This document shows positions 5,605-53,050 of a stretch of DNA of 64,000 nt, piece after piece. Position numbers and translations under genes: made by a program. Origin of the DNA: Escherichia coli (GTDB lineage Bacteria > Pseudomonadota > Gammaproteobacteria > Enterobacterales > Enterobacteriaceae); assembly GCF_003991155.1 (NCBI RefSeq), contig NZ_CP031293.1; one strand, written 5' to 3'. Position 1 is the first letter of the stretch; the number at the start of each line of letters is the position of its first letter. The notes beneath the pieces are model-generated. The model searched no databases, was not told the DNA's origin, and was given only the letters and a program-made list of their open reading frames with translations.

Positions 5605-5614
5605 AGAAACGGAA

Positions 5615-6727
5615 ATGAATACTTTTTCACTGCAGACGCGTTTATACAGCGGACCAGGAAGTCTCAAGGTACTTAGCCGTTTCTCTCATAGACACATCTG
5701 GATTATTTGCGATGCCTTTCTGGCACACTCACCACTCATTGACACGTTGCATCAGGCGCTGCCAGACAGTAATCGTCTCAGTATTTTTAGCGAAATAACG
5801 CCCGACCCAACTATCCAGACCGTGGTGAAAGGCATTGCGCAAATGCAGACTTTACGCCCGGATGTGGTTATCGGTTTTGGCGGCGGTTCTGCCCTGGACG
5901 CCGCAAAAGCGATTGTCTGGTTTGGTCGCCAGTGTGGCATTGAAATTGAAACCTGCGTAGCCATTCCTACCACCAGCGGTACCGGTTCCGAAGTGACCAG
6001 TGCTTGTGTCATCAGCGATCCTGAGAAAGGGATTAAATATCCCCTTTTCGATAATGCACTTTATCCGGATATCGCGATCCTTGATCCATCTCTGGTCGTC
6101 AGCGTGCCACCGGCGATAACGGCCAATACCGGGATGGATGTTTTAACCCATGCGCTTGAAGCTTATGTTTCTCCTCGCGCCAGCGACTTCACGGATGCAC
6201 TGGTCGAAAAAGCCGTGCAAATTGTTTTTCAATACCTGCCCACTGCAGTGAAGAAAGGCGATTGTCTCGCCACCCGTGGCAAAATGCATAATGCATCGAC
6301 ACTTGCAGGAATGGCCTTTAGCCAGGCTGGACTGGGATTAAACCATGCAATTGCTCATCAACTCGGCGGACAGTTTCATCTGCCACACGGCCTGGCGAAT
6401 GCGCTCCTGCTCACGGCGGTTATCCGCTTTAATGCTGGCGATCCGCGCGCTGCCAAACGCTACGCCCGGCTGGCGAAAACGTGCCATTTATGCCCGGACA
6501 ACGCCAATGACACCGCCAGCCTGAATGCACTTATTCAACATATTGAACAGCTTAAAACAACCTGTACGCTGCCGACTCTTACCAATGCGCTGAAAGAAAA
6601 AAAAGCAGAATGGTCAATACGCATACCAGATATGGTTCAGGCGGCACTGGCGGATGCAACGTTGCGTACCAACCCGCGTGCGGCTGATGCCTCCGCGATT
6701 GCAGAACTGCTCGAGGAGTTGTTATGA
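5615..6727 (+). CDS. pduQ: Propanol dehydrogenase (iron-containing alcohol dehydrogenase)
   Basis: 370 aa, Fe-ADH motifs (GGGSALDAAK). Confidence 0.8.
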   Translation: MNTFSLQTRLYSGPGSLKVLSRFSHRHIWIICDAFLAHSPLIDTLHQALPDSNRLSIFSEITPDPTIQTVVKGIAQMQTLRPDVVIGFGGGSALDAAKAIVWFGRQCGIEIETCVAIPTTSGTGSEVTSACVISDPEKGIKYPLFDNALYPDIAILDPSLVVSVPPAITANTGMDVLTHALEAYVSPRASDFTDALVEKAVQIVFQYLPTAVKKGDCLATRGKMHNASTLAGMAFSQAGLGLNHAIAHQLGGQFHLPHGLANALLLTAVIRFNAGDPRAAKRYARLAKTCHLCPDNANDTASLNALIQHIEQLKTTCTLPTLTNALKEKKAEWSIRIPDMVQAALADATLRTNPRAADASAIAELLEELL

Positions 6728-11871: not shown

Positions 11872-13044
11872 TCAGGCCTTATGGTGGAAATAATCACTCA
11901 GCCGGGAAAACATGCTGCCTTCCCCGACAGATTCCAGGGTAACCAGCGGCCAGTGCGCCACCTGTTTATCACGGTCGTAAAGTTCAATTTCCCCTACCCG
12001 CTGATGGGCGCTAATTGGCGCGGTGAGTTCTTTACCATCAAGGGTATATTTGGCTTTGATATGTGGAATTTCGGCTTTCGGTAGCACCATCCAGAACTCT
12101 TGTTCCGTTCCCAGGGCGATATTTTCTTTATCGCCATACCAGATGCGTTCCGTACCAACCTTTTTCCCACGGTGCAAAATTTGCACCGTAGTAAAGTTTT
12201 GTTGCCCCCAACGCAGTAATTTTCTTGCCTCTTCCTCACGACCTTTTGCGCTGTCAGCCCCCATTACCACTGCAATGAGACGACGCTGCCCATCTACAGC
12301 CGAAGCAATGAGATTAAACCCGGCACCAGAAGTATGACCCGTTTTCAGGCCGTCAACATTCATGGTTTTATCCCACAATAACCCGTTACGGTTTTGCTGG
12401 GTGATACCGTTCCAGGTGAGGCTTTTCTCACTGTACATATGATAAAACTCGGGCTCGCCGTGGATGATAGCGCGAGAAAGCACAGCTAAATCATAAGCCG
12501 AGCTATGCTGGCCAGGTGCATCCAGACCATGCACTGTTTCAAAATGCGTATCCTTGAGATGCAGCTTCTCGGCATAGTTGTTCATCATTTCAACAAACTG
12601 CCGTTGCCCACCGGCAATATAGTCAGCCAGAGCAACACAAGCGTCATTTCCGGAATCCACAATTAAACCACGGCTTAAATCACGTACCGATACGCGATCG
12701 CCCTCTTTCAGAAACATCAGTGAAGAACCGACAAACACCGGATTATCTTTCGCCCACGCATCGCGCCCCACGGTGACAATATCGTCTGGCGTAATGCGAT
12801 GACTATCGATAGCACGATCCACGACATAGCCCGTCATCAGCTTTGTCAGGCTGGCGGGATTGCGCTGTTGATGCTCATTACCCGCGGTGAGAATCTGACC
12901 GGTGGTGTAATCCATCAATACCCAGGACCCGGCATGAATCTCTGGAGGCTGAGGTGAAAAAGGAATGTTTTCCGCCGCAAAACCAGACGATAAATTAAAA
13001 ACGAACAAAGAAGCAGCAATAATAAGACGGCGTTTCAACAGCAA
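11872..13044 (-). CDS. dacD: D-alanyl-D-alanine carboxypeptidase DacD (PBP6b)
   Basis: 390 aa with signal peptide and SLTK/SGN motifs. Confidence 0.9.
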   Translation of the reverse strand: MLLKRRLIIAASLFVFNLSSGFAAENIPFSPQPPEIHAGSWVLMDYTTGQILTAGNEHQQRNPASLTKLMTGYVVDRAIDSHRITPDDIVTVGRDAWAKDNPVFVGSSLMFLKEGDRVSVRDLSRGLIVDSGNDACVALADYIAGGQRQFVEMMNNYAEKLHLKDTHFETVHGLDAPGQHSSAYDLAVLSRAIIHGEPEFYHMYSEKSLTWNGITQQNRNGLLWDKTMNVDGLKTGHTSGAGFNLIASAVDGQRRLIAVVMGADSAKGREEEARKLLRWGQQNFTTVQILHRGKKVGTERIWYGDKENIALGTEQEFWMVLPKAEIPHIKAKYTLDGKELTAPISAHQRVGEIELYDRDKQVAHWPLVTLESVGEGSMFSRLSDYFHHKA

Positions 13045-13814: not shown

Positions 13815-16292
13815 CTACATTGCCATTAATATAAACATAGCCAATTCGTCATAACGAATTCCGTAGCGTCCACCTGCTTTTTTTACAAGAATCATATTTC
13901 CTGTTTTATATTGAGAATAAATTTTCTCACCTGTATCAGGATCTGTGCTCTCTTCAGTTATCACCTCTTCATCCCATACGTCTGGCCATTCATCGTAACA
14001 CCAAAAAGCATATTGCTCAGGATTTAAACCATGCTTTCTAAGAATATCTCCTACGGTTTGAGCGCCAACTCCAAAATGATACCTTGATAACTCCAATCCT
14101 TTAAAATTAATCGACTCATTAAACCTGAACTTGCATATAATTCCCTTTATTTCCAGCGCAGCATCACGCTCTGCCTGAGTAATGTCATATATTGTTTTAA
14201 GTGTTTCATCTGATGTGCTTATAGTCCCGGATGCAGAATAAATCTGAGCCCATCTAAATGATGGTGCACCAAGAGATTTGCTGTTATCAATAATTGGTGA
14301 AAAATTACCTTTAATGGCAATATTTCCAGAGTCGCCGAATATATTAATAACTGTAGAGTCATCACCATGGTTTTTTACGCTTAAGTTTCTTGATAAAATA
14401 TTTATATCTTTGTTATACCCACTAACATTAATCCATCTTTTACCATCAATGTGATACCCGTAAATATTTCCGTTTGATTGTTCGTCAGGTGACTCTCTAA
14501 GAACAATAGCATCTACTCCAGACGACCATTGTATTTTTGTATCTGTAGGCCTCCAGTTCTTTATAATGAACGAACCATCAGTAAACTCCGTTTTTATTTG
14601 TCTATTGTCTACAAATGCGTCTCTTGGTTTAAACTCACTTGTGTTAACGCTGCTCTGAAGATCAGAAGCAAAAAATCTAAGATTTCCTGTATAACCCTGA
14701 GTCTCGGTCAGGTTATACGCAATCATAATTCCATTTTCAAACTCAGATGATGTTATTTTAACATCACGGCAATCACCAAAAATGCAATTTCCTTTATCAA
14801 ATGTTGTTTGAGCTTTGAATTTATCAAACCTTAAATTACGAACAGGGAAACCATCAACCTCTAATGCAAAGGATGCATGAAGGCCAAAGTATTCTGATGG
14901 CTTACCTGATGTATGATCAAGAGTAGTGGCTACTGTATTCTCAAAAACAGTCCCGCTAAAATTATTACCAATTGACGGAAACCTGATTACACTTATTGTA
15001 CCTTGTATTTCAGGAGAAATACCAGATAGTGTGATGTTAGTTCCATCAAATGATGCATCTGAATACGTATATACTGATTCACTGCCAGCAATTTTAAACT
15101 GTTTAACTGAAGTTATTCTCATCGACTTTTTATGTTTAAATGTCACTGAGCTTTCAGTATTACTTACAAGATCAATCTGAGGGCTATTCCTTATCGCGAT
15201 TCCTGACTGGACATAAACGTTATTAAAGTGCGTTTTTTCAGGATTTCCCTTCATTGAAAGGCTCCCGTCATTTTCTGTCAGTAGTAGTCCTTTTACCCTC
15301 CAATAGCCGACAATCTGTACGTTATCAATAACTGAATCACAGCTATCGTATACATGCAACCCTATATCCCAGTTATCACCCAATGAATAAGAATCAGGGT
15401 TATTGTATCCTTCAATACCATTTTTACTTACCATTATTCTCAGATTGCGTAACTGTGATGCCCTGTTGATACTAACAGCTACGCTCATGGCTTTTGGTGT
15501 AGCAGGAGTAACACCTACAGAATCTTCATTCGTAAACTCAGTGAACTTACAAGATATCCCTTCAACAATTTTAACCGGTCTTTCATTAGAGATGTTAAAA
15601 AAATATTTGTTTTTTTCTCCATCACCAGTAAATACAAGATGGGTTCCTTTACTCCAACTTTTTAATAATCTTTCAGGCGCTGGTCTATATGTATCCCAAT
15701 AATCAATGCCAGATCCAACCAGTGAACACCCCTCAGGAATGTTAATATTCTTCTTGATGATGCATATTCCTTCCGGAATTGTTATAACCGACCTTCCAGA
15801 GTTTAAAGCTTTAATAAAAGCATCTGAATCATCTGTTTCCCCATCTATTTTTGCTCCCCACCCTCTAACATCTCCACAATCTCTCCATCGTGCCATCTGC
15901 AACTCAGGATATTTTTTAGCGCCATCTGGATCTTCTAATTGCTGCCGTAGCTGATCGGGGTCATACTTCAGCACATTAGGAAAATAGAACTGCTGCGCAC
16001 CATATGCATCATAAACAGCCATAGAATGGCCTTGCACAGTTACAAACTTGGCTATTTGCCCGTTATATACCGGGTAACCAGCAGCGTTAATGATGATTGG
16101 TTGCGAAACAGGAACGTGAGAGCCATCTTCGTTCTCCACATAAACCTGAATCTGGTTTTCAGGATTTACAGGGTCAGTGTCAATTTTACCGATATAAATT
16201 TTGCCATTGGCAACCGCTTTAAAAGAACGTGCCATAGTGAAGAGTTGAGAAGGCATACTCACTACAACATTGGCATTTATCGAATCTGTCAT
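13815..16292 (-). CDS. Tailspike: P22 gp9-like head-binding N-domain, divergent receptor-binding domain, C-terminal intramolecular-chaperone-like domain
   Basis: 825 aa; N-terminus resembles P22 tailspike; SDETLK motif about 150 aa from C-terminus. Confidence 0.85.
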
Positions 16293-16391: not shown

Positions 16392-17321
16392 TCAGTAGTT
16401 ATGTACTGAAGGAGGTAATTCTTTATTCTTAAGTCTCATCCATGCGGAAAGATTCGTTGGTCCGTCTGGCTCATTGATATCAACATCTCGTGTGTGATTG
16501 ATTAAAACGTCTCTCGCCATTCCGATAACATACGAGAACTCATGACCATAGTCGTAGCATCTGCCGGAATAGTTCGATTGAATTTGTTTTAATGCCGGAT
16601 ACAGTTCGCGGAATAACGCCTGTGAGCGGTTGGCATAATCCCATAACCATACAAGGCTGTTTGCTTCTTTTGCAGAAAGCTCGTTGGTTTTCTTCTCTTG
16701 TTTGCCAATGAACTCACCTTCAAGCGGAACGCGAGCAGCAAGTGACAGTGCTTCGGTAAACTGCTCATCACTGATTTCTTTGTACGAACATCCAAAATGG
16801 GATTTCAGTGACGACCACATGGTGATCATCGCCTTCGCCTGTTTTTCTTTTGGCAGAGACTGACCGCGACTCATGACGAGTTGTTTAATGGCTTCCTGCT
16901 GTTCAGTGGTGATTTTACCCGGCAACGCCTTTTTAGCTTTGCGTGGGTTAACTACATGGCCTTTAGTCCAGTACTCGTAGAGCACATCGTCACACTCTTC
17001 CTGATACTGGATTACCTTGTCGCGGATTTCAGGGCGGACTTTGTTTGGACTGATGGTTTGCAGCCAGCCAGCAAGTTTGCGAAGTGCCAAACAAATAATC
17101 TCACGGCACTGTTCATCACCAGGAAGCTGCATTGTGATTTTCACAATGGAGGTTTTAAACCGTTGCTTTATTTTCGTAAACTGTGAAGCCCAATCCATAC
17201 CCATACCTTCAACGATAGGTTTCATTGGGGTGTACGGCTCACCGTTGTGATTGACGACATAAAGCTCTGCGCCGTGGAATGGCACGTTGATAGTAGATAC
17301 TGCTGTTGCTATACTTTTCAT
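16392..17321 (-). CDS. ant: Antirepressor Ant (P22 immI)
   Basis: 309 aa, [24 protein letters not shown]22 Ant-like. Confidence 0.85.
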
Positions 17322-17386
17322 GTCAGTTTTTCCTCAAAATTTACTGGCGATTTAAGCCCGAGCTACTCGCAATAGCTTGGGCTTTA
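17318..17386 (+). ncRNA. sar: Candidate sar-like antisense RNA across the arc-ant intercistronic region
   Basis: Intercistronic hairpin GCCCGAGCTA..TAGCTTGGGC antisense to ant RBS; analogy to P22 sar; ends approximate. Confidence 0.3.
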
Positions 17387-17387
17387 C

Positions 17388-17534
17388 TCATTCTGGACAA
17401 ACAATTCCATCCTTAGCTACTGACTCCTTTAGTCTCCTCAATACCTCATTACTGAACGACCGATCATCCTTTTTCGCGGACTGCTCCAAAGCCTTTTCCA
17501 GCCATTCTGGCATCCTTAATGTCTTAACTTTCAT
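17388..17534 (-). CDS. arc: Arc-like ribbon-helix-helix repressor
   Basis: 48 aa from MKVKTLRMPEW with AAGGAG RBS; upstream of ant. Confidence 0.7.
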   Translation of the reverse strand: MKVKTLRMPEWLEKALEQSAKKDDRSFSNEVLRRLKESVAKDGIVCPE

Positions 17535-17646
17535 TTTTGCTCCTTTGCTCCTTTGTATGTGGTACGCATACATAGTATTTAGGTACGCATTGATAGTCAA
17601 TAGATACCTACATATCCTGTGGTAAATAATTATTCAGGATGCGCCG

Positions 17647-17898
17647 ATGTCTGATCGTAAGTACAAAAACCCTCAAGTGAATCTGAGGCTTCCTGTAGAG
17701 ATAAAGGAACGTCTTATTGAGCTGGCTGAGGCTAATTCTCGTTCATTAAATGCTGAGATGGTAGCAGCACTTGAGGCATGGACTGAAAAAAATAAACATA
17801 TTCAAGCACTAGATATTGCAACTATAGCATCGCGGTTGATAGAGCTTGAGCATGAGGTTGAGAAGTTAAAATGTATGCATGGCAACGGTGAAAAATGA
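17647..17898 (+). CDS. mnt: Mnt-like ribbon-helix-helix maintenance repressor
   Basis: 83 aa, NLRLPVEIKERLIELAEANSRSLNAEMVAALEAW; divergent from arc-ant. Confidence 0.7.
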   Translation: MSDRKYKNPQVNLRLPVEIKERLIELAEANSRSLNAEMVAALEAWTEKNKHIQALDIATIASRLIELEHEVEKLKCMHGNGEK

Positions 17899-18209
17899 AA
17901 CGCATCGCTATTTTGTTAATATTGTTCTTCTCTACAATAGTTTGCGCCAAACAAAAATCAGATAATGGCGATCTTAAAGGCCTGCAAGAACTCATGATAA
18001 CTTCGAAATTTGCTGGCATGTGCGGCACAATCAAACAAATGGCAACATTTCAAGAATCAACAAAAATGCCTGGCGGAGATGAGTTCTTACAGCGTTTTCT
18101 GACCACAGAGCAAGCAAGACTTGGAATGAATCCACAGGAGTTTCTTGAAGCATGCCAGAAGTCAATTTCAGCTTATACCAATTATTACAATCTAACTTCT
18201 GATAAATAA
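17895..18209 (+). CDS. Small exported protein of unknown function, translationally coupled to mnt
   Basis: 104 aa; ATGA overlap with mnt stop; signal peptide MKRIAILLILFFSTIVCA. Confidence 0.5.
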   Translation: MKRIAILLILFFSTIVCAKQKSDNGDLKGLQELMITSKFAGMCGTIKQMATFQESTKMPGGDEFLQRFLTTEQARLGMNPQEFLEACQKSISAYTNYYNLTSDK

Positions 18210-18234
18210 TAGAAAGGATTTTATAAATAACTTT

Positions 18235-18720
18235 ATGAAAAAATCACTATTAATTATCCCGCTTCTGCTGGCTGGATGCGCAAAAGTAAGTGACTACCAA
18301 GCAAGTTGCGAACAACGCTATCCAAAGCTTAGTGATATGGCTAATTGCCTTGATGCCAGCGTGAAGAACGACTCACGCATGGCATCAGCACCAACACCTA
18401 AGCTGTATGTCCTTGCTGCGAAGATGCTCGGGCAAGGTGTCGATGAAGGCAAGATAAGTGACGCACAGGCAAGACTTGAGCTTCAGAATCTTTATGTTCA
18501 ATTACAAAGCCAAGAACAAGCCCAACAAATAGCGCAAAGCCAAGCATTCCAGCAGGCTTTATTGAATTATCAGGCTGTAAACACAATGCAAGCGATCGAG
18601 CAAAAAGCGCGCCAGCCTGTTATAACTCAACCTTACCCAACACGCGTTGACACATATACAAACTGCAATTCAGGATTTGGAAACACCGTCACATGCAACA
18701 GTAGCAGCAACATTAGATAA
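18235..18720 (+). CDS. Lipoprotein of unknown function (lipobox LLAGC), Gln-rich C-terminal half
   Basis: 161 aa; MKKSLLIIPLLLAGC signal and lipobox; downstream of mnt in same orientation. Confidence 0.5.
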   Translation: MKKSLLIIPLLLAGCAKVSDYQASCEQRYPKLSDMANCLDASVKNDSRMASAPTPKLYVLAAKMLGQGVDEGKISDAQARLELQNLYVQLQSQEQAQQIAQSQAFQQALLNYQAVNTMQAIEQKARQPVITQPYPTRVDTYTNCNSGFGNTVTCNSSSNIR

Positions 18721-18722
18721 AG

Positions 18723-20885
18723 CTATTCATATTCATTCATACCGCTTAACGAGGCGACAATACCAGCTCTCGACAAGCGATTGAATTCATCGCTACCAAT
18801 AGCATCGCGTATTGCTTTTACGGCGGCTTTATTTGCCATAAATCTGCGTTCCGCCGCCGCTAATGCTTCTTTACTTCCGCCAGCTCTTACTGCTTTCGTG
18901 GCTTCCTGAACTGCTTTCTCTATCGCATATCGGCCGCTACGCGTGGTGGCAATTTTAGATACAGCACCTTTTAACCCGGCGCCAACTAAAGCACCTGCGG
19001 CAGCGCCTGCAATGCCCCCTCCTGCTCCACCAACAATGGCACCTGATGTTGAGTTGGCAATTGCATTTAACACTGTTGATGTGACGTTGGATAAACCGGC
19101 ATCCAGATCGCGTAGTACATTGGCAGTTCTCCCTGTTCTTTCAATATACTGCTGAGGCTTCACTGCTGCTCTTGCAAGAGTGCCATATGCATCAGCAATT
19201 CTTCCGAGTTCTGAGGAATATCTGCTAATGGCTTTTACATTTTGTGGGGTAAGTATCCCTGCGATATGGTTAATTCCTGCTGCATCAGCTTTGCCACCAC
19301 GTACACCATGCGAGATAGCATCTTGCAACATTGATGATATAGCAGGAACACGCTCTGATTCTGGCAGCGCGCGGATCATAGAATGGAACCCAGCAGGACC
19401 ATTAAGACCTTTAGCTGACGATGATTGAAGGGATTTTACTCCATTCGTAATCAGTGCATCTGTTGCCAAATCACGCCCGAAAACAGACTCTGCACTCTCT
19501 TGTGCTGATAACCTCGCTTTAGACAGATCATTAGCTTTCTGCCAGTCATCAAGAAATCCGCCGTTTTCCGCCATTGTGCGCATATCATCAGTAATTGCCC
19601 GGCGTATTTCCCCTGCTCTCCTTGCCGCATTTGCCTCTCCGCTACGCTTATATTTTTGCTCCGCATCAGCAAATTTCGCTCTCCATGCTTTCATGCCATC
19701 AAATGTTACCCCACCTTGATTGTTTGCCTGAACAAACTGTTTCATTTCAGGAGTAAGCGGTATGCCAGCAGATCGCTCTGCCTGAATAACGGCATTACCA
19801 TTTAGCATTCTTGCTTTTTGATTTGGCATTGTTGACCGCACGTCATCCCATGCCGCGCGCTCGGCATCCTTCATCTGATCAAGATTTTGAAGAATCCTTT
19901 GTTTTATAGCCGCACTTTTTTCTGATGCCGTTCCAGATGCGGCCCCAAATTCATCAAGGTTTCGACTTAACTTTGATGATATTTCGTTAAATGCTGCCTG
20001 ATGGGCGTCCTGAACAATTCCTGGTGTTGATGCCAATGCGCCTTCGGCTTGTGCAATTCCACGACTTCCAGATCGCATTCCTGGTGTTAATGCGTTTATA
20101 TCAATTCCAGCAGACTCAGCCGCTTTTGCTACATCTTCGGACACATTAGCGGCCTGACTGGCAATTGACTGACGCCCAGCACCTGACTTTGCCATCCTGG
20201 AAACATCATTAGCAGAATTCAGTGCTGCACCACCAAGAGCCTGTGAAACCCTTGGCGCAATAACGCGCCCGACACCTGAAAGAACGCCTTGAGCACCAAT
20301 ATTGATACCACCGTTAATGGCAGCATTTTGTGCAAAGTCGCCCTCCTGATTTGCAGCATCAGCAAGAGAACCTGCAATCATGTTTCCTGCGGAACCGATA
20401 TCTCCAGCGAGCTTTGCTGGCGCTCCAGCAGCTTTTGCCGCTGTGCCAATTGGCAGGAGATACCCACCAATTGTTTCACCGGCTTGCGCATAAGGGTCTG
20501 TCGGTCGATCGACTGGACGATAGACATCATCCAAAACCTTTGGGCCACCAAGCCCCTGGCTGATTGCATTAATCAGACTTGCGCCACCCTGCAATACGTC
20601 AAATGGTATGTTTACCAGACCACGACCAGCCTGTTCTGCAATTTGCCCTGCACTTTGACCACCTGTGAGCCAATCACCAGCTTGTTGCATCAATGATGGT
20701 TCTTCTTTCTGCTGCTGTGGCGGAGGGTATGCTGCATAAAACTGATCTCTTGCTTCAGCCCATTTGTCACCAGCCTTAGGGGCAACAACCTCATCAAAAT
20801 ATTGCGCTTGAGCCTGTGCTTTCTGTTCTTCAGTTAACGCCTGATACTGTGGAGAAGCGATAACATCTTTCCATGCTTTAGCCAT
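18723..20885 (-). CDS. Ejection/DNA-transfer protein (P22 gp16-like), enlarged
   Basis: 720 aa, Ala/Gly-rich; last gene of ejection-protein block. Confidence 0.7.
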
Positions 20886-22225
20886 TAATCACCCCATAAA
20901 GACGAGAAACCGGAATTATTGCTGTCGCTTCCTGATTTTCGCTCACTAACATATGTGTCATAACCTGATGAACTATATCCCATTGATTCAGCCTCCCTTG
21001 CTGCAACCTTTTGAAATACAGAATATTGCGATCGGATTTCAGATAACTGTTTTCTGACGACCTCTTCAGGCTGTGTTATATCGAGTTTCGCGATCAGGTT
21101 TTCCAGTTTTTGGCCTTCAGCATTGGAGAGGCTACCCATACCTCGCATAGTCTGCACGTTCTGGACAAACGCACCCGACTTTAATTCTTCTATCGCATTA
21201 CGGTTTGCAAGCCCTTCAGCACTTGTGAAGCCATCTATATTTCTTCCTTCGAAGCGACCGATACCTTCAAGCTCCTTCTTACCAAGCAAAGAATCAATTT
21301 TCTCTATCCCTCGCTCACCAGTAATCAACGCATTGTTGTAATTATTGTTGCCATCAAGCCATCTCTTAGCCTGAGACATTCTGGCTGACGTTGCAGCTTT
21401 ACCGGTTAGAGGATCAATTCCCGTCGCTGCTATCTGTGAGTTAAGAGACAAAACATCCATATCCTGAAGTTGTCCTGCTCTTTCAAGGGCCGCCTGTGAC
21501 TGCTTAAACACATACTTGTCGTGATTCAGTCTTGCCATTTGAGCCTTATAGGAAAGATCCTGCCCCCTAATAGCCCTCGCATTCGTCATGTCATTATTGC
21601 GAATGGTTTCGTTAATTCTTTGCTGTTCCTGCTGGCGACCAACCATCTTGTCCTGAACATTGAAGTAATCAATCGGACCAAGAGCAGCCATTCCGAGGTG
21701 ATCAACAAACTCACCAAATCCTGAAGGATTCTGCTGATACATCTGAGCAACGTTGTTAGGGTCAACGCCGACGCGCGCCAGTTCCTTGGCGTTGTTTTGC
21801 AGCCATGATTGCATTGCTTCTGGAGACGAGGCCGCAAGGCGTGCGCCAGCTGCTAAGGTGCCGATAGAATTACGCTGCTCTTCATCAATGAATCCCATGC
21901 CTTTACGAACGGATTCAATCTGGTCTGGATATTGAGTAGCCAACTGACGCAAAGCACCGCGATCACCAGACGCATAAGCATTAGCGTATGCCTGCTGAAA
22001 TTCTTTCTGCCGCTGAGCCTGCTTTTCCTGCTGAAACACCCCCGCAATACCTGAAAGTCCTTGCAAAGCAGTCAGCCCAACATTGTTAGCGCCTGAACGC
22101 TCAATATCATTGTTCTGCCTGATAAGCTGAAGCGTATTGCCGATGTCATTTACGCTCGGAGCGTTTGAGTTGACGCCGCCGATACCAGCCAACAATCCGC
22201 CATTTGATCCTTGCCAAGTAGCCAT
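20885..22225 (-). CDS. Ejection protein (P22 gp20-like)
   Basis: 446 aa; gene order and overlap with flanking genes. Confidence 0.65.
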
Positions 22226-22234
22226 GATTACCCC

Positions 22235-22927
22235 TTAAAACAACGAACCAAGCAATCCGATACCAGCACCAATGCCAGCGCCCCAAGGTGTTGATGTTCC
22301 CAAAAGGCTGGCAAGACCTGCACCGGCAATCGCACCGGACGTTCCGCCGCTAATTGCTGTCTGAAGACTTGATGGTTTATTGGCATTAGCAGCGGCAAGT
22401 GCTGCGCTTTGCTGTGCAATGCTGCTCATGTTGTTGGCGTACGTCTGCCCGGCGTTTGCCTGACCTTGCAGAGCACCAAGCCCAACGTTTGCCAGATTGT
22501 TGTAATTGCTCATCTGGTTTGATAACCAAGACTGACCGAGAGTCGGCGCGATCGTAGCCAGTTGATTGCTTGTGGCTGTCGAACCAAGTCCGCCAGTCGC
22601 CTCCGCAGCAGCAAGACTCTGGTAACGAGCCTGACCTGCAAGGTCTTTATACTGCTGAGAATTGTAATACTGATTAAGTGCCTTCCCCTGACCTTCTAAA
22701 CTGGAAAGATTCTGAAGCTGGTTAACATACTGCTCCGCAAGCGGCGTGAACGGAGCAAGGTTTTTCATGATCGTCTGCCACTGCTGATTTTGCAGGTCTG
22801 CGGCATACTTCTGGGCTTCTGCTGCATACTTTGCGCTTTTATCAGAACTGCCACCTTTCCCGCCTTTTTCAGGGCAATAAGGTTCCTCGCCGCGCAGTTT
22901 TCTGCCCAGCTTAAATGCATATAACAT
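22235..22927 (-). CDS. Ejection protein (P22 gp7-like)
   Basis: 230 aa, Gly/Ala-rich C-terminus; gene order. Confidence 0.6.
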   Translation of the reverse strand: MLYAFKLGRKLRGEEPYCPEKGGKGGSSDKSAKYAAEAQKYAADLQNQQWQTIMKNLAPFTPLAEQYVNQLQNLSSLEGQGKALNQYYNSQQYKDLAGQARYQSLAAAEATGGLGSTATSNQLATIAPTLGQSWLSNQMSNYNNLANVGLGALQGQANAGQTYANNMSSIAQQSAALAAANANKPSSLQTAISGGTSGAIAGAGLASLLGTSTPWGAGIGAGIGLLGSLF

Positions 22928-22929
22928 GG

Positions 22930-23385
22930 CTATCTCCCGTGATTCAGGAAGTCGATTAGTTCTTCGCGTGTGGCGCTGTAAAACGTCACGTCATCCACGC
23001 CTTTGAAGTATTTCTTGATGGTTCCTACACGCTTAAGGCCAATCATTGCGCAGTACATCTGACCGTGGCGGAATTTGCGCGCAGCGAACGATGTGACACA
23101 CTGAACAGTGGTGTTAGTCAGAATGTATCGCCAGAACGCCAGCCCGATTTCCTTGCTGAAGCCGCGAACCTCTGGCAGGTACATGGCGTGGCAATCGAAT
23201 GTCAGCGGCTGAATCTCCTGATAGTAAACAATGCCGCCGAACTGCCCGTGCACGTTAACTTCAAAGTAACGGCAATCAGGTTTGTAGCCGTATTCATCAC
23301 CGTTATTGCTCCCGGCGATAATGTCAGGGTGATTTCCGACTGCTTCTATCAGGTCGATGTTTCGCGTTGGTTTGAATGTAATCAT
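22930..23385 (-). CDS. Virion protein (P22 gp14-like)
   Basis: 151 aa; gene order. Confidence 0.6.
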   Translation of the reverse strand: MITFKPTRNIDLIEAVGNHPDIIAGSNNGDEYGYKPDCRYFEVNVHGQFGGIVYYQEIQPLTFDCHAMYLPEVRGFSKEIGLAFWRYILTNTTVQCVTSFAARKFRHGQMYCAMIGLKRVGTIKKYFKGVDDVTFYSATREELIDFLNHGR

Positions 23386-24086
23386 CAGTCAATCAGCCCA
23401 TGTAATCTAAGTGCTGTTTCAAGCGCCAGAATACGCTGCCGCGCCTGCTGCAAACCTGTAGCGAGAGCCGCGACTTCGGATTGCGTGTACGTAGTGCCGA
23501 CAGTGTATGACTGGTTAGCGTTGAATGAGCCAAGAAGTGGCGTACCTGTGGCTGCAGTCCATCCGGTCTGCCTTGCTCCAACGACCTGAATTCCATCAAC
23601 TGAATATGATGTTTTTACATCCAGCGGTGACGCAAGAGACTGCGATTCGGTTACGGTTTTCGATACGTAATCACTCTTAATGCCAGAGACATCGTTTTCT
23701 ACGTCATTCAGTCTTTGGTCAACAGTGACCAGATGCGCCTGAATATCGATAACCTCATCCAGCAAGTAATCAACATCGCTACGCAGTACGACTATCTTCC
23801 CTTCGGCAGTTGTTAACCTGACCTCAAGGAGATTTATCGCTTTTGTGTTTGCGGTGATTCTTGCGTCGTGATCAGCCAGTTCGACATCCTGTTCATCGTT
23901 TTTCACCTGAGCATCGTAAGCGCCCTGACCAGCCTGATTTGCCTTCCCGGCAATTGCGCCGACATCAGCCCCCTGATTAATGACATACAGCAGGTAAGAC
24001 TGGCTGAAGATATTGCGTGGAAGGATTGATGTATCGAGCCGCGTCGCCTGCACAATAACAGGAGTGTTGAGATTCGAATCCGCCAT
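23385..24086 (-). CDS. Tail needle protein (P22 gp26-like)
   Basis: 233 aa; N- and C-terminal sequences match gp26 as remembered. Confidence 0.9.
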
Positions 24087-25504
24087 TACTCAATCCTTAT
24101 CTGAGCGCCAGAAAGAGTTACAGGTGACTTCGTGATAACGCGCAATTTGAAGCCGACATTTTTCCTGATGCGCCCTACTCTCTTCCACAAAACACGCTTG
24201 TCGTAAACGAACGGTTCATTCTGCTCAATCATCTGCTCACGACCGTAATTGATGCCATCAGTGGTTGCCGAGAGGAACAGGCGGTCGGCGTACTGAGCGA
24301 CACCCGTCGATGATTCCACCTCCAGATCAAAGCATCTGGCGTTATCCGCTTTGAACAACGGAGTAAACAGCAGGTGTTCCTGTTGCTTGTCGTACTGGCT
24401 GCTGATATCGAATTGCAATTTCCCGGTCACGGACTCCAGCTTATCGCCGCACGTTATCTGATTGCCTTCGTAAATGAAGTCGATAGCGCGGTACACATCG
24501 TCATACAGGCCTGTTTTCAGTACACACCATTGCGGACCATTGGCGCTTGAAGATGCGTCGTACACGAGAACATGGCGCGGAAGATGGATAATCAGCAGCT
24601 CATGCGCATCAAATCGCAGAGACTCCATCACACCATCAGCCAGTTCATCAGCAGTGTAGGAGCGGAGGATTTTCTCAATGCTCGCGCTGGCGATTGGTGA
24701 TACCTGACCGGAGCCGATGATATATACAGACGGCGCACCTGTTGCCGGATTGCTGATGAACGCATAAGAATCAGCGAATGGCGTTTTGCAGTAAGTCCCG
24801 GCGATGCCTTTTTGCACCATCAGTGATGGCTGTGCGACATACAAAGCGGCACCAACGGTAGTTGATCCTGTCAGGGAGAAATATTCAATAGTCGATGAAC
24901 CAAAGCATACGATGAAGTCTCGCCATGTTCCGATGCCGATGATGCCGTCAGGCTGCGATTCTGCGCGATATTGTGCGCTGTAGCGGTCAGGGTGCGATTC
25001 GTCTTCAAGGTCAGTGATAAACCATGAATCAGTACCGTCTTTTGACCACGCATAACGCCCACGCAAGCGCGTAATGTCGCGAACAGAACCTAACTCATAC
25101 TGCGTGAATCCGCTGTCCGTAGGCCAGTTTGAGACGGTTTTAACCGTGCCATCATAGCGATACTCGACCAGTTGACCATTAACGCCTACCGCCTGTGATG
25201 TCCGACCATGCGCCATTGATACGCGACCACTTCCGGCAACATCACCGACTTCACTTTCGCCTTTGTACAGCTTGCCACCACACACACGATAAACAGCATT
25301 CTGCGCCATGTTGTACTCGACACCGCGAGATACACCGTTCACATCAGAACGTTTTGCAATGCCCGGGAATGAGCGAAGATATCCGCTGCTGTTCAGGATT
25401 TCTTTGGGTGTAGCCAACATATTCACTGGCAGATAGTCGATATAGTCGGCATTTCGGAAGTCTTTGCCGACACCTTTCATAAGCGGAAGTTGCTGAATCG
25501 GCAT
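24086..25504 (-). CDS. Tail accessory factor (P22 gp10-like)
   Basis: 472 aa; gene order. Confidence 0.8.
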
Positions 25505-26005
25505 TTATTCGCCCCCGTTATCGCAAGGTTCCTTCCGGTGGAAGTAATTCCAACCATTCCACTTCGCCAACTGGTTACCGCTACCAACAGGCATACGGTT
25601 TGGATAACCGGACTTACATTTAGCGGCTTTTGCTCTGTCCATTGCAGACAGTTTGACGAGTCGCTCTTTCCCGTATCTGGCAGTGGTTATAAGTTTTGCA
25701 GGCGCTTCCAGCGCATAATCCGGTGCAATGCGGCAGGCAAGGTTGAAAATAACAGCATTGATAGCGTTATTTGATAAACCGTGCTCATCGCCCGGATCCG
25801 GAGCGACATCTGCATCAGCAAAAATGTAGCCAACGTTGATCCCAGGTGACGCATCACCGCCAAGCCATTCAGCCATCATCATTTCAAGGTCGTTGACGCC
25901 GTCTTCCATAGACTGCGGTTCGACATCAGTTAACGTGGCATTTGATGCCACACCGAGCTTACGTAATGCCGCAAGGACTAAATCACCCTTCGTTGTCAGG
26001 TTCAT
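25505..26005 (-). CDS. Tail accessory factor (P22 gp4-like)
   Basis: 166 aa from internal ATG (MNLTTKG), matching gp4 length. Confidence 0.65.
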
Positions 26006-26219
26006 CTGATGCCGCCTTAGGTTTTCGACCAGGCTTTTTACGCTGCTTTTCTTCTGGCTCTGGCTCTTGCTTTGCAACATCCTTCAAAAGGTCATCAGGA
26101 TGTGAAAACCAGCCAGCATCCAGATATTCCTGAAGCTCTTCGGCTTTCACGATTTCAAAGTCGTAGCCAACGCCTTTCCACTTCTTCATGTCGCCATGAC
26201 GAAAGATCATGTGTGTCAT
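25983..26219 (-). CDS. Small hypothetical protein after the coat-gene terminator
   Basis: 78 aa from MTHMIF; GGAGA RBS after hairpin GGGAGCTTCGGCTCCC plus T-run. Confidence 0.3.
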
Positions 26220-26263
26220 GCTTGTCTCCAGATAAAAACGGGAGCCGAAGCTCCCTCTGGTTA

Positions 26264-27559
26264 TCACGCGGTCTGGTTAGGCAGACCAACACCAATTGCC
26301 TCTGGCCGTACAGCACATGCTGAATACCACACAGCAATACGGCACTTACCAGACAGAGTATTGATATCACCCTGCGTTGCGAAGATGCCGTTAACACCAA
26401 TACCAGGAATGCTGAAGGAAGACGTTTTCATGCCAGCAAACAGTTCATGGGTTACCGGAATCGGCTGAGACAGCAGGCGGATTGAGTCATCAGCCCAGAA
26501 CACGTTAGCGGTGGTTGTTGCCACGTTCAGAACGTTTACCGTAGTGGAATCAGCAAGAGAGGTGTTTACGTTAGCGTAAGCCTTCTCTTCTTTTGTCAGT
26601 GACGCGTCATCCAGTGCAATCGGCTTCGGCGTGATTTCGATGTGAGTACTATCGATCACACGGGTGATTGAGAAAGTTGCATCATCAGTCAGCACGTTCT
26701 TCGCCATCTGAGACAGGAATTTCACACCAGTGAAACTGATTTTGTCGCCGCGCTTAAATCCGGTGGTGGAGGATACAGTCACCGTTGCAACACGGTTGTC
26801 GACGTTCTCTTTGTTACCATCGGTATCAAGGGTGTATGCCTGCGGCTTAAACTTCTGCGCGCCAGAAACAGTTACACCAGTAGCGGTTGACTTGGTAACT
26901 GCCGGAAGTTTCGGTGAGCGAAGAATTTCATCAAAGCCAGCAATCTGACGCTGAATAGTACCGTTGTGATACGCATCTTCAGGAACGCGCCCGAAGATGT
27001 CACCATCTACAAGATTGCGGCCTGCTTTGCGGTAATCGTCAGGGTTCAGGAAGTAACTGATACCCATGTCGCGGTTGAGTTCGCGGGAGAACATCAGTCG
27101 CTCTGCATCAGACACAAAATCCCAGCCAGACAGGCCAGTAGATGGACCAATTGCGCGGGTATCGTGAACAACAAGTGAGCCCATTTCGGTTGCCTGTTTG
27201 GCAATTGCTGACTCAATGTTATTCGCCAGTTTTTTGGCGGATGCCTGGATGCGGCGACGGTAAGAACGCTCATCACGCAGGTCATCTGCACGAAGCTCGA
27301 AGAAATCGTTATCCGGATCGCCCATGTTGCACTTCACGGAGAGTTCCAGAATCCCGGTTGCGTTGCCAGTTAAATCCCAGCCAGTCTGGGTTGGCGCTTC
27401 CTGCTCAACAGGCATCCACACGGTGTTGCTTGAACGCTGCATGGATTCTGCCGGAGGGGTGTATTTTGTCACTTTGGACGCCATTGGCGTCAGGTTCTGG
27501 ACGGTTTCGATGATTTCATCCAGAGCATACGTGACCAGTTGACCTTCATTTAATGCCAT
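26264..27559 (-). CDS. Major coat protein (P22 gp5-like)
   Basis: 431 aa, [19 protein letters not shown]. Confidence 0.95.
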
Positions 27560-28470
27560 TATCGAATTCCTTTATTCAGTTGCGCCTTGAGCTTGCGGTA
27601 TGTCTCCACATCACCTTTGTTTGCTGCCGCTTCCATCTGCTTTTCAATCGCAGAGATATTTGCAGCAACAGCGTGTCCCTGAATGGGTTCATCAGGTAAC
27701 GGGGCTTCTGAAACAGGCTTTGCTCGAGGCTTGAGAGTTAAACGTTCTGACAGTCGAGTGAGTTCAATCAGCGCGGATTGCCCGTCCATCGCCAGCAACT
27801 GGCGTGTTTTCTCAGGATTAGCACCAAGGTGATACATGAGAGCGGCGGATTTCTCCGGGAAGAGGCGCATGATGTCGGCACCGACTGCTGGCGGCACCAG
27901 TTGCATGAATGCATCCTCTTTCTCCTGATAGTCAGGGATATTGAGTTTTTCCGCTGCGTCGTAGTGCTTACGGGCTGCCTCGACGTATTGCGCTGATTGC
28001 TGGGTGAACTCCTGAGTTTTGCGCCCCTGCTCGGCGACAGCCCGGCTTCGTGCGTCCATAGCCTTGATCTGCCATTCACTGTTTGCCTGCTGGAAGGCAG
28101 CCAGTGCGCGGCTCTGGTCATAGTCGTACTTAGCCAGTGCATCTTCGGAAAGATAATCGTTAGGGTCTGGTTGTTTTGGTAACTCAGGGTTCACCCGCAG
28201 GTGCTCCGGCAACTCTCCACGCTTAACCGCTTCCATCTGCTGCTCAAGCTCACGCTGGCGTTTGCGTTCGATGCGGCGACGGGCAAATTCAGCATTAGTT
28301 GCCGGGTCTTGTTTTGGTTTCTCATCGTCTTTCAGGACAATCTCGAAGCCTTCTTCCTGACCTGCGTTGTCGTTGGCATTATCGACAACTAAGCCATCAG
28401 CAGATGCCGCTGCATGATTGCCGGGCAGGGTTAATTCTTCAGAAGCCTGAATGTCGGTGGTTTGGTCCAT
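27559..28470 (-). CDS. Scaffolding protein (P22 gp8-like)
   Basis: 303 aa, charged; between portal and coat. Confidence 0.8.
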
Positions 28471-51691: not shown

Positions 51692-51883
51692 ATGACCGAT
51701 ACCAGCCTGATTCCTGAGAAAGAAGTGATGAACAAGCTCGGTGTTTCATCACGTCAGACAATCTGGAACTATACCAAACGGCACGGATTTCCGAAGCCAG
51801 TCAGAACCCACCCCAAATCATACCTTCGTGAAGCTGTTGAAGGGTGGATTCTTAACGGTGGCGTTAATCAGAAATGCTCCTGA
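51692..51883 (+). CDS. xis: AlpA-family excisionase / DNA-binding regulator
   Basis: 63 aa with HTH (LGVSSRQTIWNYTKRHGFPKP); adjacent to integrase. Confidence 0.7.
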   Translation: MTDTSLIPEKEVMNKLGVSSRQTIWNYTKRHGFPKPVRTHPKSYLREAVEGWILNGGVNQKCS

Positions 51884-53042: not shown

Positions 53043-53050
53043 AAATAATA

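What the first reader, a model, noticed from the sequence alone, without database searches (positions are those of the whole stretch)
17647..18720. Exported two-gene cassette translationally coupled to the mnt maintenance repressor
The mnt stop overlaps the ATG of a 104-aa protein with a cleavable signal peptide (ATGA at 17895-17898), followed 25 bp later by a 161-aa lipoprotein (lipobox LLAGC) with a Gln-rich C-terminal half. Both lie in the mnt orientation, opposite to all virion genes, so they would be expressed from the lysogen-active mnt promoter. This is the slot where P22 carries sieA, yet neither protein resembles SieA or any family I recognise. A periplasmic/outer-membrane pair made in the lysogen is the expected architecture for a superinfection-exclusion or receptor-masking system (compare T5 Llp, lambdoid Cor).
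Basis: partly seen in the sequence, partly recalled or inferred. Interest (0 to 1): 0.75.

Follow-up and report, generated by a model that had tools for sequence, protein, structure and literature searches.

The report
Exported prophage cargo genes behind mnt
Behind the mnt repressor gene of a P22-like E. coli prophage lie two real, strongly conserved genes of unknown function, one for a small periplasmic protein and one for an outer-membrane lipoprotein; they are independent cargo modules in the place where phage P22 keeps its superinfection-exclusion gene sieA, so they are good but untested candidates for new exclusion factors.

Summary
An Arc-family mnt gene (17647-17898) overlaps by ATGA a 104-aa signal-peptide protein (17895-18209). 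A 161-aa lipoprotein with lipobox LAGC (18235-18720) follows 25 bp later. All three point against the virion genes, in the gene 16 to gene 9 slot of a complete P22-like prophage lying between dacD and sbcB.

They are not a fixed pair. The ORF104 family (290 clusters at 50% identity) keeps the 4-nt overlap with mnt in E. coli and Vibrio prophages that carry other downstream cargo. ORF161 is restricted to Enterobacterales, lies convergent to gene 16 in 98 of 100 loci, and has at least 9 upstream contexts.

Of 5426 complete E. coli genomes, 185 carry ORF161, 60 carry ORF104 and 17 carry both contiguously, including O104:H4 outbreak strains. A 99%-identical lipoprotein is transcribed in the LF82 lysogen.

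A SieA-like exclusion role is plausible from position but untested.

The parts
17572..17630 (.). Divergent promoter/operator region of immI. It holds sigma-70-like sites for mnt (+, 17590-17630) and for arc-ant (-, 17600-17572), overlapped by a near-palindrome at 17576-17614.
   Evidence: Promoter scan and inverted repeat I1, 18-nt arms, 78% complementary. Same layout as the annotated Pmnt/Pant/Oarc/Omnt of P22. These are consensus matches only; function is inferred.
17647..17898 (+). mnt-like Arc-family ribbon-helix-helix repressor gene, 83 aa.
   Evidence: Pfam Arc E 3.9e-10 with no Repressor_Mnt hit. 47% identity to the P22 Mnt N-terminus, and the same length. 93% nt identity to the gene annotated mnt in CUS-3.
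17895..18209 (+). ORF104: a secreted periplasmic protein whose start overlaps the mnt stop (ATGA). The signal peptide is encoded by 17895-17948. The mature protein of about 86 aa is predicted to be a three-helix bundle with conserved C43/C87 and the motif FQESTKMPGGDEF.
   Evidence: alignments; AF2 pLDDT 78; hydropathy, dN/dS; phrog_19844; 290 clusters at 50% identity.
18210..18234 (+). 25-bp spacer that is a mosaic junction. It replaces the leader (CAAAACTAAGGAGAGTTAATCAT) that precedes the lipoprotein gene in the seven other E. coli-type contexts aligned (including Salmonella phage VSe13). Only AAAGGA is present, 15 nt upstream of the ATG.
   Evidence: Homology to Gally, VSe13 and 720R6 starts at window 18234. 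Homology to the 86% mnt-ORF104 type ends near 18221. Alignment A4. No promoter- or terminator-like site was found here.
18235..18720 (+). ORF161: a lipoprotein with lipobox L12-A13-G14-C15 (Cys codon 18277-18279) and Ala at +2. It has a conserved helical N-domain with C25/C38, a Gln-rich long helix (residues 84-125, nt 18484-18609) and a C-terminal Cys-bracketed beta-hairpin (nt 18652-18702).
   Evidence: alignment A1; AF2 pLDDT 62; N-domain 73-80; dN/dS 0.02-0.035; phrog_6067; 108 clusters, Enterobacterales only.
17388..17534 (-). arc-like gene (context). The likely start is the ATG at 17534, preceded by AAAGGAGCAAAGGAG, rather than the TTG at 17600 given by the ORF list.
   Evidence: Read from the sequence. 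PHROG Arc-like hits.
17322..17388 (+). sar-like antisense RNA between arc and ant (context).
   Evidence: Rfam RF00262, 29.3 bits, E 0.0044, below the gathering score of 43, full model length, at the position expected from P22.
16392..17321 (-). ant antirepressor gene (context).
   Evidence: phrog_245, E 3.5e-97.
18723..20885 (-). P22 gp16-type DNA ejection protein gene. It is convergent to ORF161, with only 2 nt between the two stop codons.
   Evidence: RefSeq name 'P22-gp16 family phage DNA ejection protein' in the 99.4% identical TW10573 locus.

Best explanation
The region is a lysogen-side operon, mnt-ORF104-ORF161, of a complete P22-type immI region. It is read from the mnt promoter toward gene 16.

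ORF104 and ORF161 are two separately mobile lysogenic-conversion ('moron') genes.
- ORF104 is exported by Sec and cleaved after VCA. It should fold in the periplasm into a disulfide-stapled three-helix bundle.
- ORF161 is lipidated at Cys15. With Ala at +2 it should be sorted to the inner face of the outer membrane. It would present a small helical domain, a roughly 50-residue Gln-rich helix and a disulfide-bracketed C-terminal hairpin into the periplasm.

The most likely job of both is to change the envelope of the lysogen so that superinfecting phage is stopped after adsorption. ORF161 would be a P22-like-specific functional replacement for SieA in the same slot. ORF104 would be a broader-range periplasmic factor.

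Shown here:
- gene reality;
- export signals;
- modular architecture;
- the conserved mnt-ORF104 overlap;
- the fixed slot of ORF161;
- transcription of a near-identical ORF161 in a lysogen.

Inferred:
- co-transcription from Pmnt in this prophage;
- final cell location;
- fold;
- the anti-phage function itself.

My confidence is about 0.85 for the architecture and lysogen-expressed envelope cargo, and about 0.4 for exclusion as the function.
For: Architecture:
- The ATGA overlap, 25-bp spacer and shared strand are read directly from the sequence.
- No terminator-like or further promoter-like site was found between 17630 and 18720.
- The immI layout matches annotated P22: Pmnt/Pant, arc, sar, ant.

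mnt-ORF104 coupling:
- The 4-nt overlap recurs in the 72%-identical E. coli type, which has quite different downstream cargo (L005-L008).
- It also recurs in a Vibrio fluvialis P22-like prophage at 42-45% identity (L010/L011).
- Of 15 sequence clusters with context, 3 overlap mnt, 3 more (L043/L044, L045, L060) follow an Arc-family gene by about 20-110 nt, and 3 sit directly convergent to gp16.

ORF161 slot:
- 98 of 100 assessable loci have a gp16-like gene convergent within 200 nt.
- 93 of 100 have an Arc/Mnt gene upstream on the same strand.
- The same holds in Morganella, Yersinia and Klebsiella.
- This mirrors the published distribution of sieA, which is found only in P22-like prophages, only between genes 16 and 9, and in only 22 of 66 P22-like phages (PMC10883804).
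- No type-A SieA homologue is present in any fetched locus.

Cargo of the slot elsewhere:
- Other prophages carry SocA_Panacea, P63C and another signal-peptide protein there.

Expression:
- GALLYPH_13, 99% identical at protein level, gave 70 normalised reads against a prophage median of 15.6 in LB.
- It is up log2FC 2.55 (q 4.7e-27) in macrophages (PMC9928086 S1/S4).

Constraint:
- dN/dS is 0.02-0.145 and the cysteine pairs are conserved.
Against: - No experiment or homology links either protein to phage exclusion. PADLOC gave nothing. PHROG Cor matched at E 0.078 over the signal peptide only. There is no similarity to SieA or T4 Spackle.
- The very low dN/dS of ORF161 fits a conserved host partner rather than an arms race with phage proteins.
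- The fixed position of ORF161 could simply reflect spread by homologous recombination between the conserved flanks (the gene 16 end and mnt).
- In LF82 the lipoprotein and mnt are induced in DMEM and in macrophages, which equally suits a host-adaptation role.
- In LF82, Pmnt is near background in LB (13 against 15.6).
- In this window ORF161 has lost the strong AAGGAG leader found elsewhere, so its expression level here is uncertain.
- The ORF161 model is of low confidence (pLDDT 62).
Confidence: 0.45

Rival explanations
1. Host-fitness conversion genes. The two envelope proteins benefit the bacterium directly, for example through envelope-stress tolerance, serum or macrophage survival, or colonisation, as lambda Bor does. 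On this reading they have nothing to do with incoming phage.
For: - GALLYPH_13 and the neighbouring mnt are strongly induced in DMEM and inside macrophages.
- The very strong purifying selection on ORF161 (dN/dS 0.02-0.035) suggests a conserved host partner.
- The cassette occurs in pathogenic lineages, including O104:H4, ETEC and the AIEC strain LF82.
- The ORF104 family occurs in many phage types and hosts.
Against: - ORF161 has been seen only in P22-like prophages, at one position. This matches the sieA pattern, unlike bor- or lom-type morons.
- Deleting mnt in LF82 did not change macrophage survival (PMC9928086). That deletion did not remove the lipoprotein.
- There is no similarity to any known virulence or stress family.
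Confidence: 0.3
2. An obligate two-component exported system. The periplasmic protein and the lipoprotein would work together as one cassette.
For: - They are adjacent, on the same strand and 25 bp apart.
- This arrangement is 98-99% conserved in 17 complete E. coli genomes and about 10 IMG/VR contigs.
Against: - Each gene mostly occurs without the other: 185 against 60 against 17 genomes, and 78, 41 and 23 loci.
- A lipoprotein gene at least 98% identical has at least 9 different upstream contexts.
- ORF104 homologues sit with unrelated downstream genes.
- The spacer is a recombination junction that lacks the usual leader.
Confidence: 0.08
3. A lytic-cycle role such as spanin, lysis accessory or virion assembly, rather than a lysogen function.
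For: - ORF161 is a lipoprotein with a Pro-rich stretch, as o-spanins are.
- It gives a weak PHROG Rz-like spanin hit at E 0.058.
Against: - That hit covers only the signal peptide (residues 5-36).
- The genes lie outside the lysis block and are antisense to the late operon.
- The lipoprotein is transcribed in uninduced lysogens while the neighbouring injection genes are at background.
Confidence: 0.03
4. Chance or decaying ORFs with no function.
For: No family annotation exists in any library searched.
Against: - dN/dS is well below 1.
- Homologues are full length across genera, with conserved cysteines.
- There are full-length PHROG matches.
- One of the two genes is supported by RNA-seq.
Confidence: 0.01

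Closest known systems
P22 SieA (superinfection exclusion, inner-membrane protein)
   Same: - Same slot between gene 16 and gene 9, convergent to gene 16, and in mnt orientation.
- Same restriction to P22-like prophages of Enterobacterales.
- Similar size (164 against 161 aa).
   Different: - No sequence similarity.
- SieA is a multi-pass inner-membrane protein with its own promoter and the motif FxRYPxEAxxFNK (PMC10883804).
- ORF161 has only a lipoprotein signal and no other hydrophobic segment.
- ORF104 is soluble and periplasmic.
T5 Llp and phi80/N15/HK022 Cor (outer-membrane lipoproteins that inactivate the receptor FhuA)
   Same: - Prophage- or phage-encoded lipoprotein predicted to face the periplasm from the outer membrane.
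- Contains disulfide-forming cysteines.
- A receptor-masking mechanism is conceivable. From my own knowledge, P22-like phage Sf6 uses OmpA/OmpC as secondary receptors.
   Different: - Llp and Cor are about 60-80 aa. ORF161 is twice that size and predicted to be mainly helical.
- The PHROG Cor family matches only the signal peptide, at E 0.078.
- No FhuA-dependent phage biology is involved here.
T4 Spackle (Sp, gp61.3), a periplasmic inhibitor of the incoming tail lysozyme
   Same: - From the sequences, both ORF104 and Sp are about 100-aa precursors with a Sec-type signal.
- ORF104's mature form is predicted to be small, helical and cysteine-stapled. From my own knowledge, Sp's solved structure is similar.
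- Some P22-like gp16 proteins carry lytic-transglycosylase domains that could be a target.
   Different: - No homology: hhalign probability 10%, over the signal peptide only.
- Sp is made during lytic T4 infection, not from a prophage.
Lambda Bor and similar moron lipoproteins
   Same: A small prophage lipoprotein expressed in the lysogen from a cargo position.
   Different: - No sequence similarity in PHROGs or NCBIfam.
- Bor-type genes move among many phage types, whereas ORF161 is confined to one slot of P22-like phages.
P22 orf59a (the gene that follows mnt in P22)
   Same: It occupies the position immediately downstream of mnt in the Pmnt transcript, as ORF104 does.
   Different: - No similarity (BLASTP E 1.0).
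- 59 aa, and separated from mnt by 99 nt rather than overlapping it.

Membership tests
SieA (P22 superinfection exclusion) | Detectable sequence similarity to SieA types A-C, including the motif FxRYPxEAxxFNK | tested here: not met
   BLASTP of ORF161 against P22 SieA found no alignment at E up to 100. The motif is absent from both translated sequences. Types B and C were not compared directly.
SieA (P22 superinfection exclusion) | Multi-pass inner-membrane topology | tested here: not met
   Kyte-Doolittle windows above 1.6 occur only in the N-terminal signal of each protein.
SieA (P22 superinfection exclusion) | Located between genes 16 and 9 of a P22-like prophage and expressed from the prophage | tested here: met
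   Position. Expression was shown only for the LF82 homologue of ORF161.
SieA (P22 superinfection exclusion) | Blocks DNA injection by P22-like phages | not testable with these tools
   Needs plating, K+ efflux and DNA-entry assays.
Cor / Llp receptor-masking lipoproteins | Homology to the Cor or Llp families | tested here: not met
   PHROG Cor (phrog_1119) matched at E 0.078, residues 1-29 only. No Llp family was listed.
Cor / Llp receptor-masking lipoproteins | Lipobox and outer-membrane sorting | tested here: met
   L-A-G-C with Ala at +2. Sorting is inferred from the Lol '+2 Asp' rule and was not measured.
T4 Spackle | Sequence or profile homology | tested here: not met
   hhalign of A3 against T4 Sp gave probability 10% over 7 aligned columns.
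T4 Spackle | Inhibits the murein hydrolase of the incoming virion | not testable with these tools
   Needs a biochemical assay with gp4- or gp16-type hydrolases.
Mnt repressor (first gene) | N-terminal ribbon-helix-helix (Arc/MetJ) domain | tested here: met
   Pfam Arc E 3.9e-10. 47% identity to P22 Mnt residues 5-36.
Mnt repressor (first gene) | Mnt C-terminal tetramerisation domain (Pfam PF11423) | tested here: not met
   No PF11423 hit. The Vibrio and Klebsiella counterparts do hit it. The name here rests on position, length and the CUS-3 annotation.
Mnt repressor (first gene) | Divergent from arc-ant, with overlapping promoters and operator | tested here: met
   compared with P22. These are consensus-level matches only.
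Bacterial lipoprotein (ORF161) | Signal peptide ending in the lipobox [LVI][ASTVI][GAS]C | tested here: met
   Residues 12-15 are LAGC. Cys15 is invariant in 29 homologues.
Sec-exported periplasmic protein (ORF104) | n-h-c signal peptide with a small-X-small cleavage site, no lipobox and no further TM segment | tested here: met
   MKR / IAILLILFFSTIV / VCA|K. Cys17 is not conserved in homologues. Hydropathy. No dedicated predictor was available.
PHROG phrog_19844 / phrog_6067 (unknown function) | Full-length profile match | tested here: met
   E 6.4e-63 (1-104 of 105) and E 2.6e-110 (1-161 of 161).

The most novel reading that the evidence does not exclude
The ORF104 family would be a new, widespread class of periplasmic superinfection-exclusion factor. 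It is wired by translational coupling to the Mnt lysogeny circuit in phages from Vibrio to E. coli. It would block the periplasmic step of genome delivery, either the trans-envelope ejection-protein conduit or its murein hydrolase. ORF161 would be a second, lipoprotein-type exclusion factor that replaces SieA in many of the P22-like phages that lack sieA.
Probability: 0.25. Interest if true: 0.7.

Novelty: new variant of a known kind. Interest (0 to 1): 0.5.

Why it matters
- Only about a third of sequenced P22-like phages carry sieA (PMC10883804). What fills that slot in the rest is unstudied.
- This work defines two conserved, exported protein families that fill it.
- One family is tied by a conserved 4-nt overlap to the Mnt repressor across Vibrio and Enterobacteria.
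- The other is confined to the gene-16 side of the slot in at least a dozen genera of Enterobacterales.
- Both are present in clinically important E. coli, including the O104:H4 outbreak clone, ETEC and the AIEC strain LF82.
- If either protein blocks infection, it would give a new handle on how podovirus ejection proteins cross the periplasm. It would also be a resistance determinant relevant to phage therapy.
- If instead they serve the host, they are new envelope conversion factors that are induced in macrophages.

Tried and rejected
Family and sequence searches
- Pfam on both proteins and on 46 ORF104-family members gave nothing at E of 0.001 or below.
- NCBIfam gave only a GspK hit at 18.9 bits against a cutoff of 130, on the Gln-rich helix. 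That hit probably explains a 'GspK' label on a Cronobacter homologue, and I rejected it.
- PADLOC gave nothing.
- PDB sequence and profile search gave nothing below E 1.

Structure searches
- Foldseek against AFDB50 for ORF104 returned only its own family, all uncharacterised. One member is labelled DUF3015, which our Pfam scans do not reproduce.

Direct comparisons
- ORF104 against orf59a, ORF161 against SieA, and the ORF104 profile against T4 Spackle showed no homology.
- The weak PHROG hits to Cor and Rz-like spanin cover the signal peptide only.

Literature
- Searches for the RefSeq accessions and locus tags found nothing.
- No O104:H4 transcriptome covering this prophage was found.

Other
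- The search for related loci with the diverse alignment A3 failed for lack of a conserved stretch; A2 was used instead.
- I considered co-inheritance of ORF161 with one gp16 allele and rejected it, because it pairs with at least three gp16 types.
Full report
**What is there**

The window holds a complete P22-like (Lederbergvirus-type) prophage of about 40 kb.
- It lies between dacD (11872-13044) and sbcB (53224-54648), with an integrase gene at 51864-53042.
- The virion genes are all on the - strand. They end with gp20 (20885-22225) and a P22 gp16-type ejection protein gene (18723-20885).
- Beyond a short + strand block come arc, ant (16392-17321) and an 825-aa tailspike (13815-16292), again on the - strand.

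- An 83-aa Arc-family gene occupies 17647-17898.
- A 104-aa ORF occupies 17895-18209, and its ATG overlaps the preceding TGA (ATGA at 17895-17898).
- After 25 bp, a 161-aa ORF occupies 18235-18720.

**Is the first gene mnt, and is the regulatory setting P22-like?**

- The protein has an Arc/ribbon-helix-helix domain (Pfam E 3.9e-10). It gives no hit to the Mnt C-terminal domain model.
- It is 47% identical to P22 Mnt over the DNA-binding region and has the same length.
- It is 93% identical at the nucleotide level to the gene annotated mnt in CUS-3.
- Upstream lie sigma-70-like sites facing both ways (17590-17630 on +, 17600-17572 on -). They are overlapped by an 18-nt-arm near-palindrome at 17576-17614.
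- arc most likely starts at the ATG at 17534, behind a strong Shine-Dalgarno sequence (read).
- Rfam finds a full-length but sub-threshold sar antisense RNA match at 17322-17388 (+), exactly between arc and ant.
- This reproduces the annotated immI region of P22.

By established knowledge of P22 immI, Mnt shuts Pant and favours its own divergent promoter in the lysogen. Genes downstream of mnt are therefore expected to be lysogen-expressed. That step is inferred here.

**Are the two downstream ORFs real genes for exported proteins?**

Yes.

*ORF104*
- It starts MKRIAILLILFFSTIVCA|KQ and has no other hydrophobic segment.
- Cys17 in the signal is not conserved, while C43 and C87 are nearly invariant. 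There is a striking motif, AKxxGxCG...QM..FQ..TKMxGGDEF..RF..TE.ARLG...C...Y.
- AlphaFold2 gives a three-helix bundle with pLDDT 78, and 85-94 in the core.

*ORF161*
- It starts MKKSLLIIPLLLAGC, with Ala at +2.
- C15, C25, C38 and C154 are invariant in 29 homologues.
- The model has pLDDT 62 overall and 73-80 for residues 20-90. It shows a small helical domain, a long helix to residue 125 (33% Gln over residues 84-125) and a C-terminal hairpin bracketed by C144/C154.

*Selection and family membership*
- dN/dS is 0.145 for ORF104 (0.21 against the Vibrio homologue).
- dN/dS is 0.02-0.035 for ORF161.
- Each protein is a full-length member of a PHROG of unknown function, phrog_19844 and phrog_6067.

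**Homology and fold searches**

- There is no similarity to P22 SieA, P22 orf59a or T4 Spackle. Similarity to Cor is limited to the signal peptide.

Family size and spread:
- The ORF104 family is large. It has 290 clusters at 50% identity, 205 of them at E of 1e-10 or better.
- Members occur in Pseudomonas, Vibrio, Pseudoalteromonas, Gallionella and others.
- The ORF161 family is small, with 108 clusters at 90% identity.
- It is confined to Enterobacterales: Escherichia, Citrobacter, Serratia, Klebsiella, Cronobacter, Yersinia, Pectobacterium, Pantoea, Tatumella, Xenorhabdus, Morganella and Providencia.

**The main correction: two modules, not one cassette**

*ORF104 travels with mnt.*
- The 4-nt overlap recurs in a 72%-identical E. 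coli type. Its downstream genes are quite different: a 61-aa ORF, SocA_Panacea, P63C and another signal-peptide protein next to gp16.
- It also recurs in a Vibrio fluvialis P22-like prophage at 42-45% identity.
- I could place 15 sequence clusters of the family in context:

| Context | Clusters |
|---|---|
| Overlaps mnt | 3 |
| Follows an Arc-family gene by about 20-110 nt | 3 (L043/L044, L045, L060) |
| Directly convergent to gp16, that is in the sieA slot itself | 3 |
| Other mobile-element contexts | 6 (for three of them) |

The Arc-following group includes siphovirus-like phages with a divergent ant.

*ORF161 travels with the gene-16 side of the slot.*
- 98 of 100 assessable loci have a gp16-like gene convergent within 200 nt, and 93 of 100 have an Arc/Mnt gene upstream.
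- This also holds in Morganella (no immI at all), Yersinia (directly after mnt) and Klebsiella.
- A lipoprotein gene at least 98% identical occurs with at least 9 upstream contexts in 82 IMG/VR contigs. The commonest is mnt, then 34 nt, then the lipoprotein. Only 9 contigs have ORF104 upstream.
- It pairs with at least three gp16 types.

*Counts*

| Set | ORF161 | ORF104 | Both |
|---|---|---|---|
| 5426 complete E. coli genomes | 185 | 60 | 17 (contiguous) |
| Fetched loci, each gene alone or both | 78 alone | 41 alone | 23 |

The 17 genomes with both include the O104:H4 outbreak strains.

*The junction*
- The 25-bp spacer is a mosaic junction. Homology to Gally-type phages begins at the ORF161 start codon.
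- In the other E. coli-type contexts aligned, the gene carries a conserved leader with an AAGGAG Shine-Dalgarno sequence.
- The window type lacks that leader and has only AAAGGA, 15 nt upstream.

**Expression evidence**

Phage Gally of the AIEC strain LF82 carries a 99%-identical lipoprotein (GALLYPH_13) in the same slot, but without ORF104. The published RNA-seq tables give the following (PMC9928086 S1 and S4).
- GALLYPH_13 had 70 normalised reads in LB overnight culture. The prophage median was 15.6, and the authors' moron cutoff was 78.
- It was up-regulated in macrophages (log2FC 2.55, q 4.7e-27). The adjacent injection genes stayed at background.
- mnt itself was at background in LB (13) and rose about 40-fold in macrophages.

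So the lipoprotein is a lysogen-expressed gene, there read from its own leader. How active Pmnt is depends on conditions. No data exist for the window's exact arrangement.

**Most likely mechanism**

I read the block as a lysogen-side operon carrying two independent envelope cargo genes.

Arguments that point to superinfection exclusion:
- The slot is the sieA slot.
- sieA has the same peculiar distribution as ORF161. It is found only in P22-like prophages, only between genes 16 and 9, in a similar set of genera, and in only 22 of 66 P22-like phages (PMC10883804).
- No type-A SieA homologue occurs in any locus that carries ORF104 or ORF161.
- In other prophages the slot carries defence-type cargo, SocA_Panacea and P63C.
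- Both products go to the compartment that the P22 ejection proteins must cross.

How each protein might act:
- ORF161 is anchored in the outer membrane and has a helix of about 50 residues. It could obstruct or mis-trigger the conduit, or mask a secondary receptor.
- ORF104 resembles T4 Spackle in its general properties only. It could inhibit a virion murein hydrolase, since some gp16 homologues carry SLT domains.

These mechanistic steps are inference.

Arguments against:
- There is no homology or experiment.
- dN/dS is extremely low, which suits a conserved host partner.
- The positional conservation could arise from recombination between conserved flanks.
- Expression is induced in macrophages.

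I put about 0.85 on lysogen-expressed, independently mobile envelope cargo. I put about 0.4 on exclusion as the function and about 0.3 on a host-fitness role.

**Verdict**

The slot and the export signals are right, the 'pair' is wrong, and the function is open.
- The proteins are new families within a known kind of system, prophage lysogenic-conversion or exclusion cargo.
- Interest is moderate. The conserved mnt-ORF104 coupling from Vibrio to E. coli, and the SieA-like distribution of ORF161, give two concrete and cheaply testable candidates for what replaces SieA.

Noticed in passing
window 17322-17388 (+): A full-length but sub-threshold match to Rfam sar RNA (RF00262, 29.3 bits against a gathering score of 43, E 0.0044). 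It lies exactly between the arc stop and the ant start, antisense to them as in P22.
   Followed up: partly
window 17388-17600 (-): The mechanical ORF for arc starts at a TTG (70 aa). An internal ATG at 17534 preceded by AAAGGAGCAAAGGAG gives a 48-aa Arc-sized protein and is the likelier start. RefSeq annotates an even shorter 41-aa 'hypothetical protein' here in strain TW10573.
   Followed up: partly
window 13815-16292 (-): The 825-aa tailspike combines the P22 head-binding domain (E 4e-65) with a pectate-lyase-like region. It also has a C-terminal Peptidase_S74 intramolecular chaperone domain (E 7e-4) preceded by an endosialidase-tailspike-like stretch. It is therefore probably auto-cleaved at its C-terminus.
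   Followed up: partly
window 11872-13044 and 51864-54648: The prophage sits between dacD and sbcB, with its integrase at 51864-53042 next to sbcB. Only about 770 bp separate dacD from the tailspike, and I saw no O-antigen-modification (gtr or acetylase) operon there.
   Followed up: no
window 18720-18723: The ORF161 and gp16 stop codons are 2 nt apart and convergent, with no terminator-like structure. Lysogen transcripts would therefore run antisense into gene 16, and late transcripts antisense into ORF161. In related loci the gap is 2, 9, 13, 14, 90 or about 190 nt.
   Followed up: partly
L005-L008 (E. coli P22-like prophages), about 4300-6200: Between mnt-ORF104 and gp16 these prophages carry other cargo: a 61-aa ORF, a SocA_Panacea-domain protein, a P63C-domain protein, and a 122-154-aa protein with a signal peptide next to gp16 (MFLFISFGATAECWVV...). 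The slot looks like a hotspot for defence-type and exported cargo.
   Followed up: no
alignment A1, columns about 135-175 (ORF161 residues 127-161): The lipoprotein family has two alternative C-terminal tails on a conserved N-terminal domain. They are VITQPYPTRVDTYTNCNSGFGNTVTCNSSSNIR and TYIPPVQLQNNNVTTNCTTYGNQTRCQSY. Both keep the Cys...Cys hairpin. This may be a specificity-determining tip.
   Followed up: no
L002 (phage Gally) 2948-3367 (-), GALLYPH_14: In LF82 the 139-aa gene divergent from the lipoprotein gene is among the most strongly expressed Gally genes in DMEM and in macrophages (log2 about 10-11; log2FC 3.84). Its function is unknown.
   Followed up: no
L001 (E. coli TW10573) 21124-28321: The closest complete-genome match to the cassette (99.4%) lies in a degraded prophage. 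There, gp16 abuts a truncated recT, an IS100 is inserted, and the element is next to intS and tRNA-Arg rather than dacD/sbcB. The cassette therefore survives in a prophage remnant.
   Followed up: no
P0201: A 3291-aa protein matches the ORF104 profile in 30 separate stretches (profile positions 16-50). This is probably a repetitive or low-complexity artefact, but it was not examined.
   Followed up: no
L144 (phage CUS-3) 2548-4469: CUS-3 has two consecutive mnt-like genes followed by two hypothetical genes and hkcB. All are in mnt orientation and run up to gp16, another version of a cargo operon downstream of mnt.
   Followed up: no
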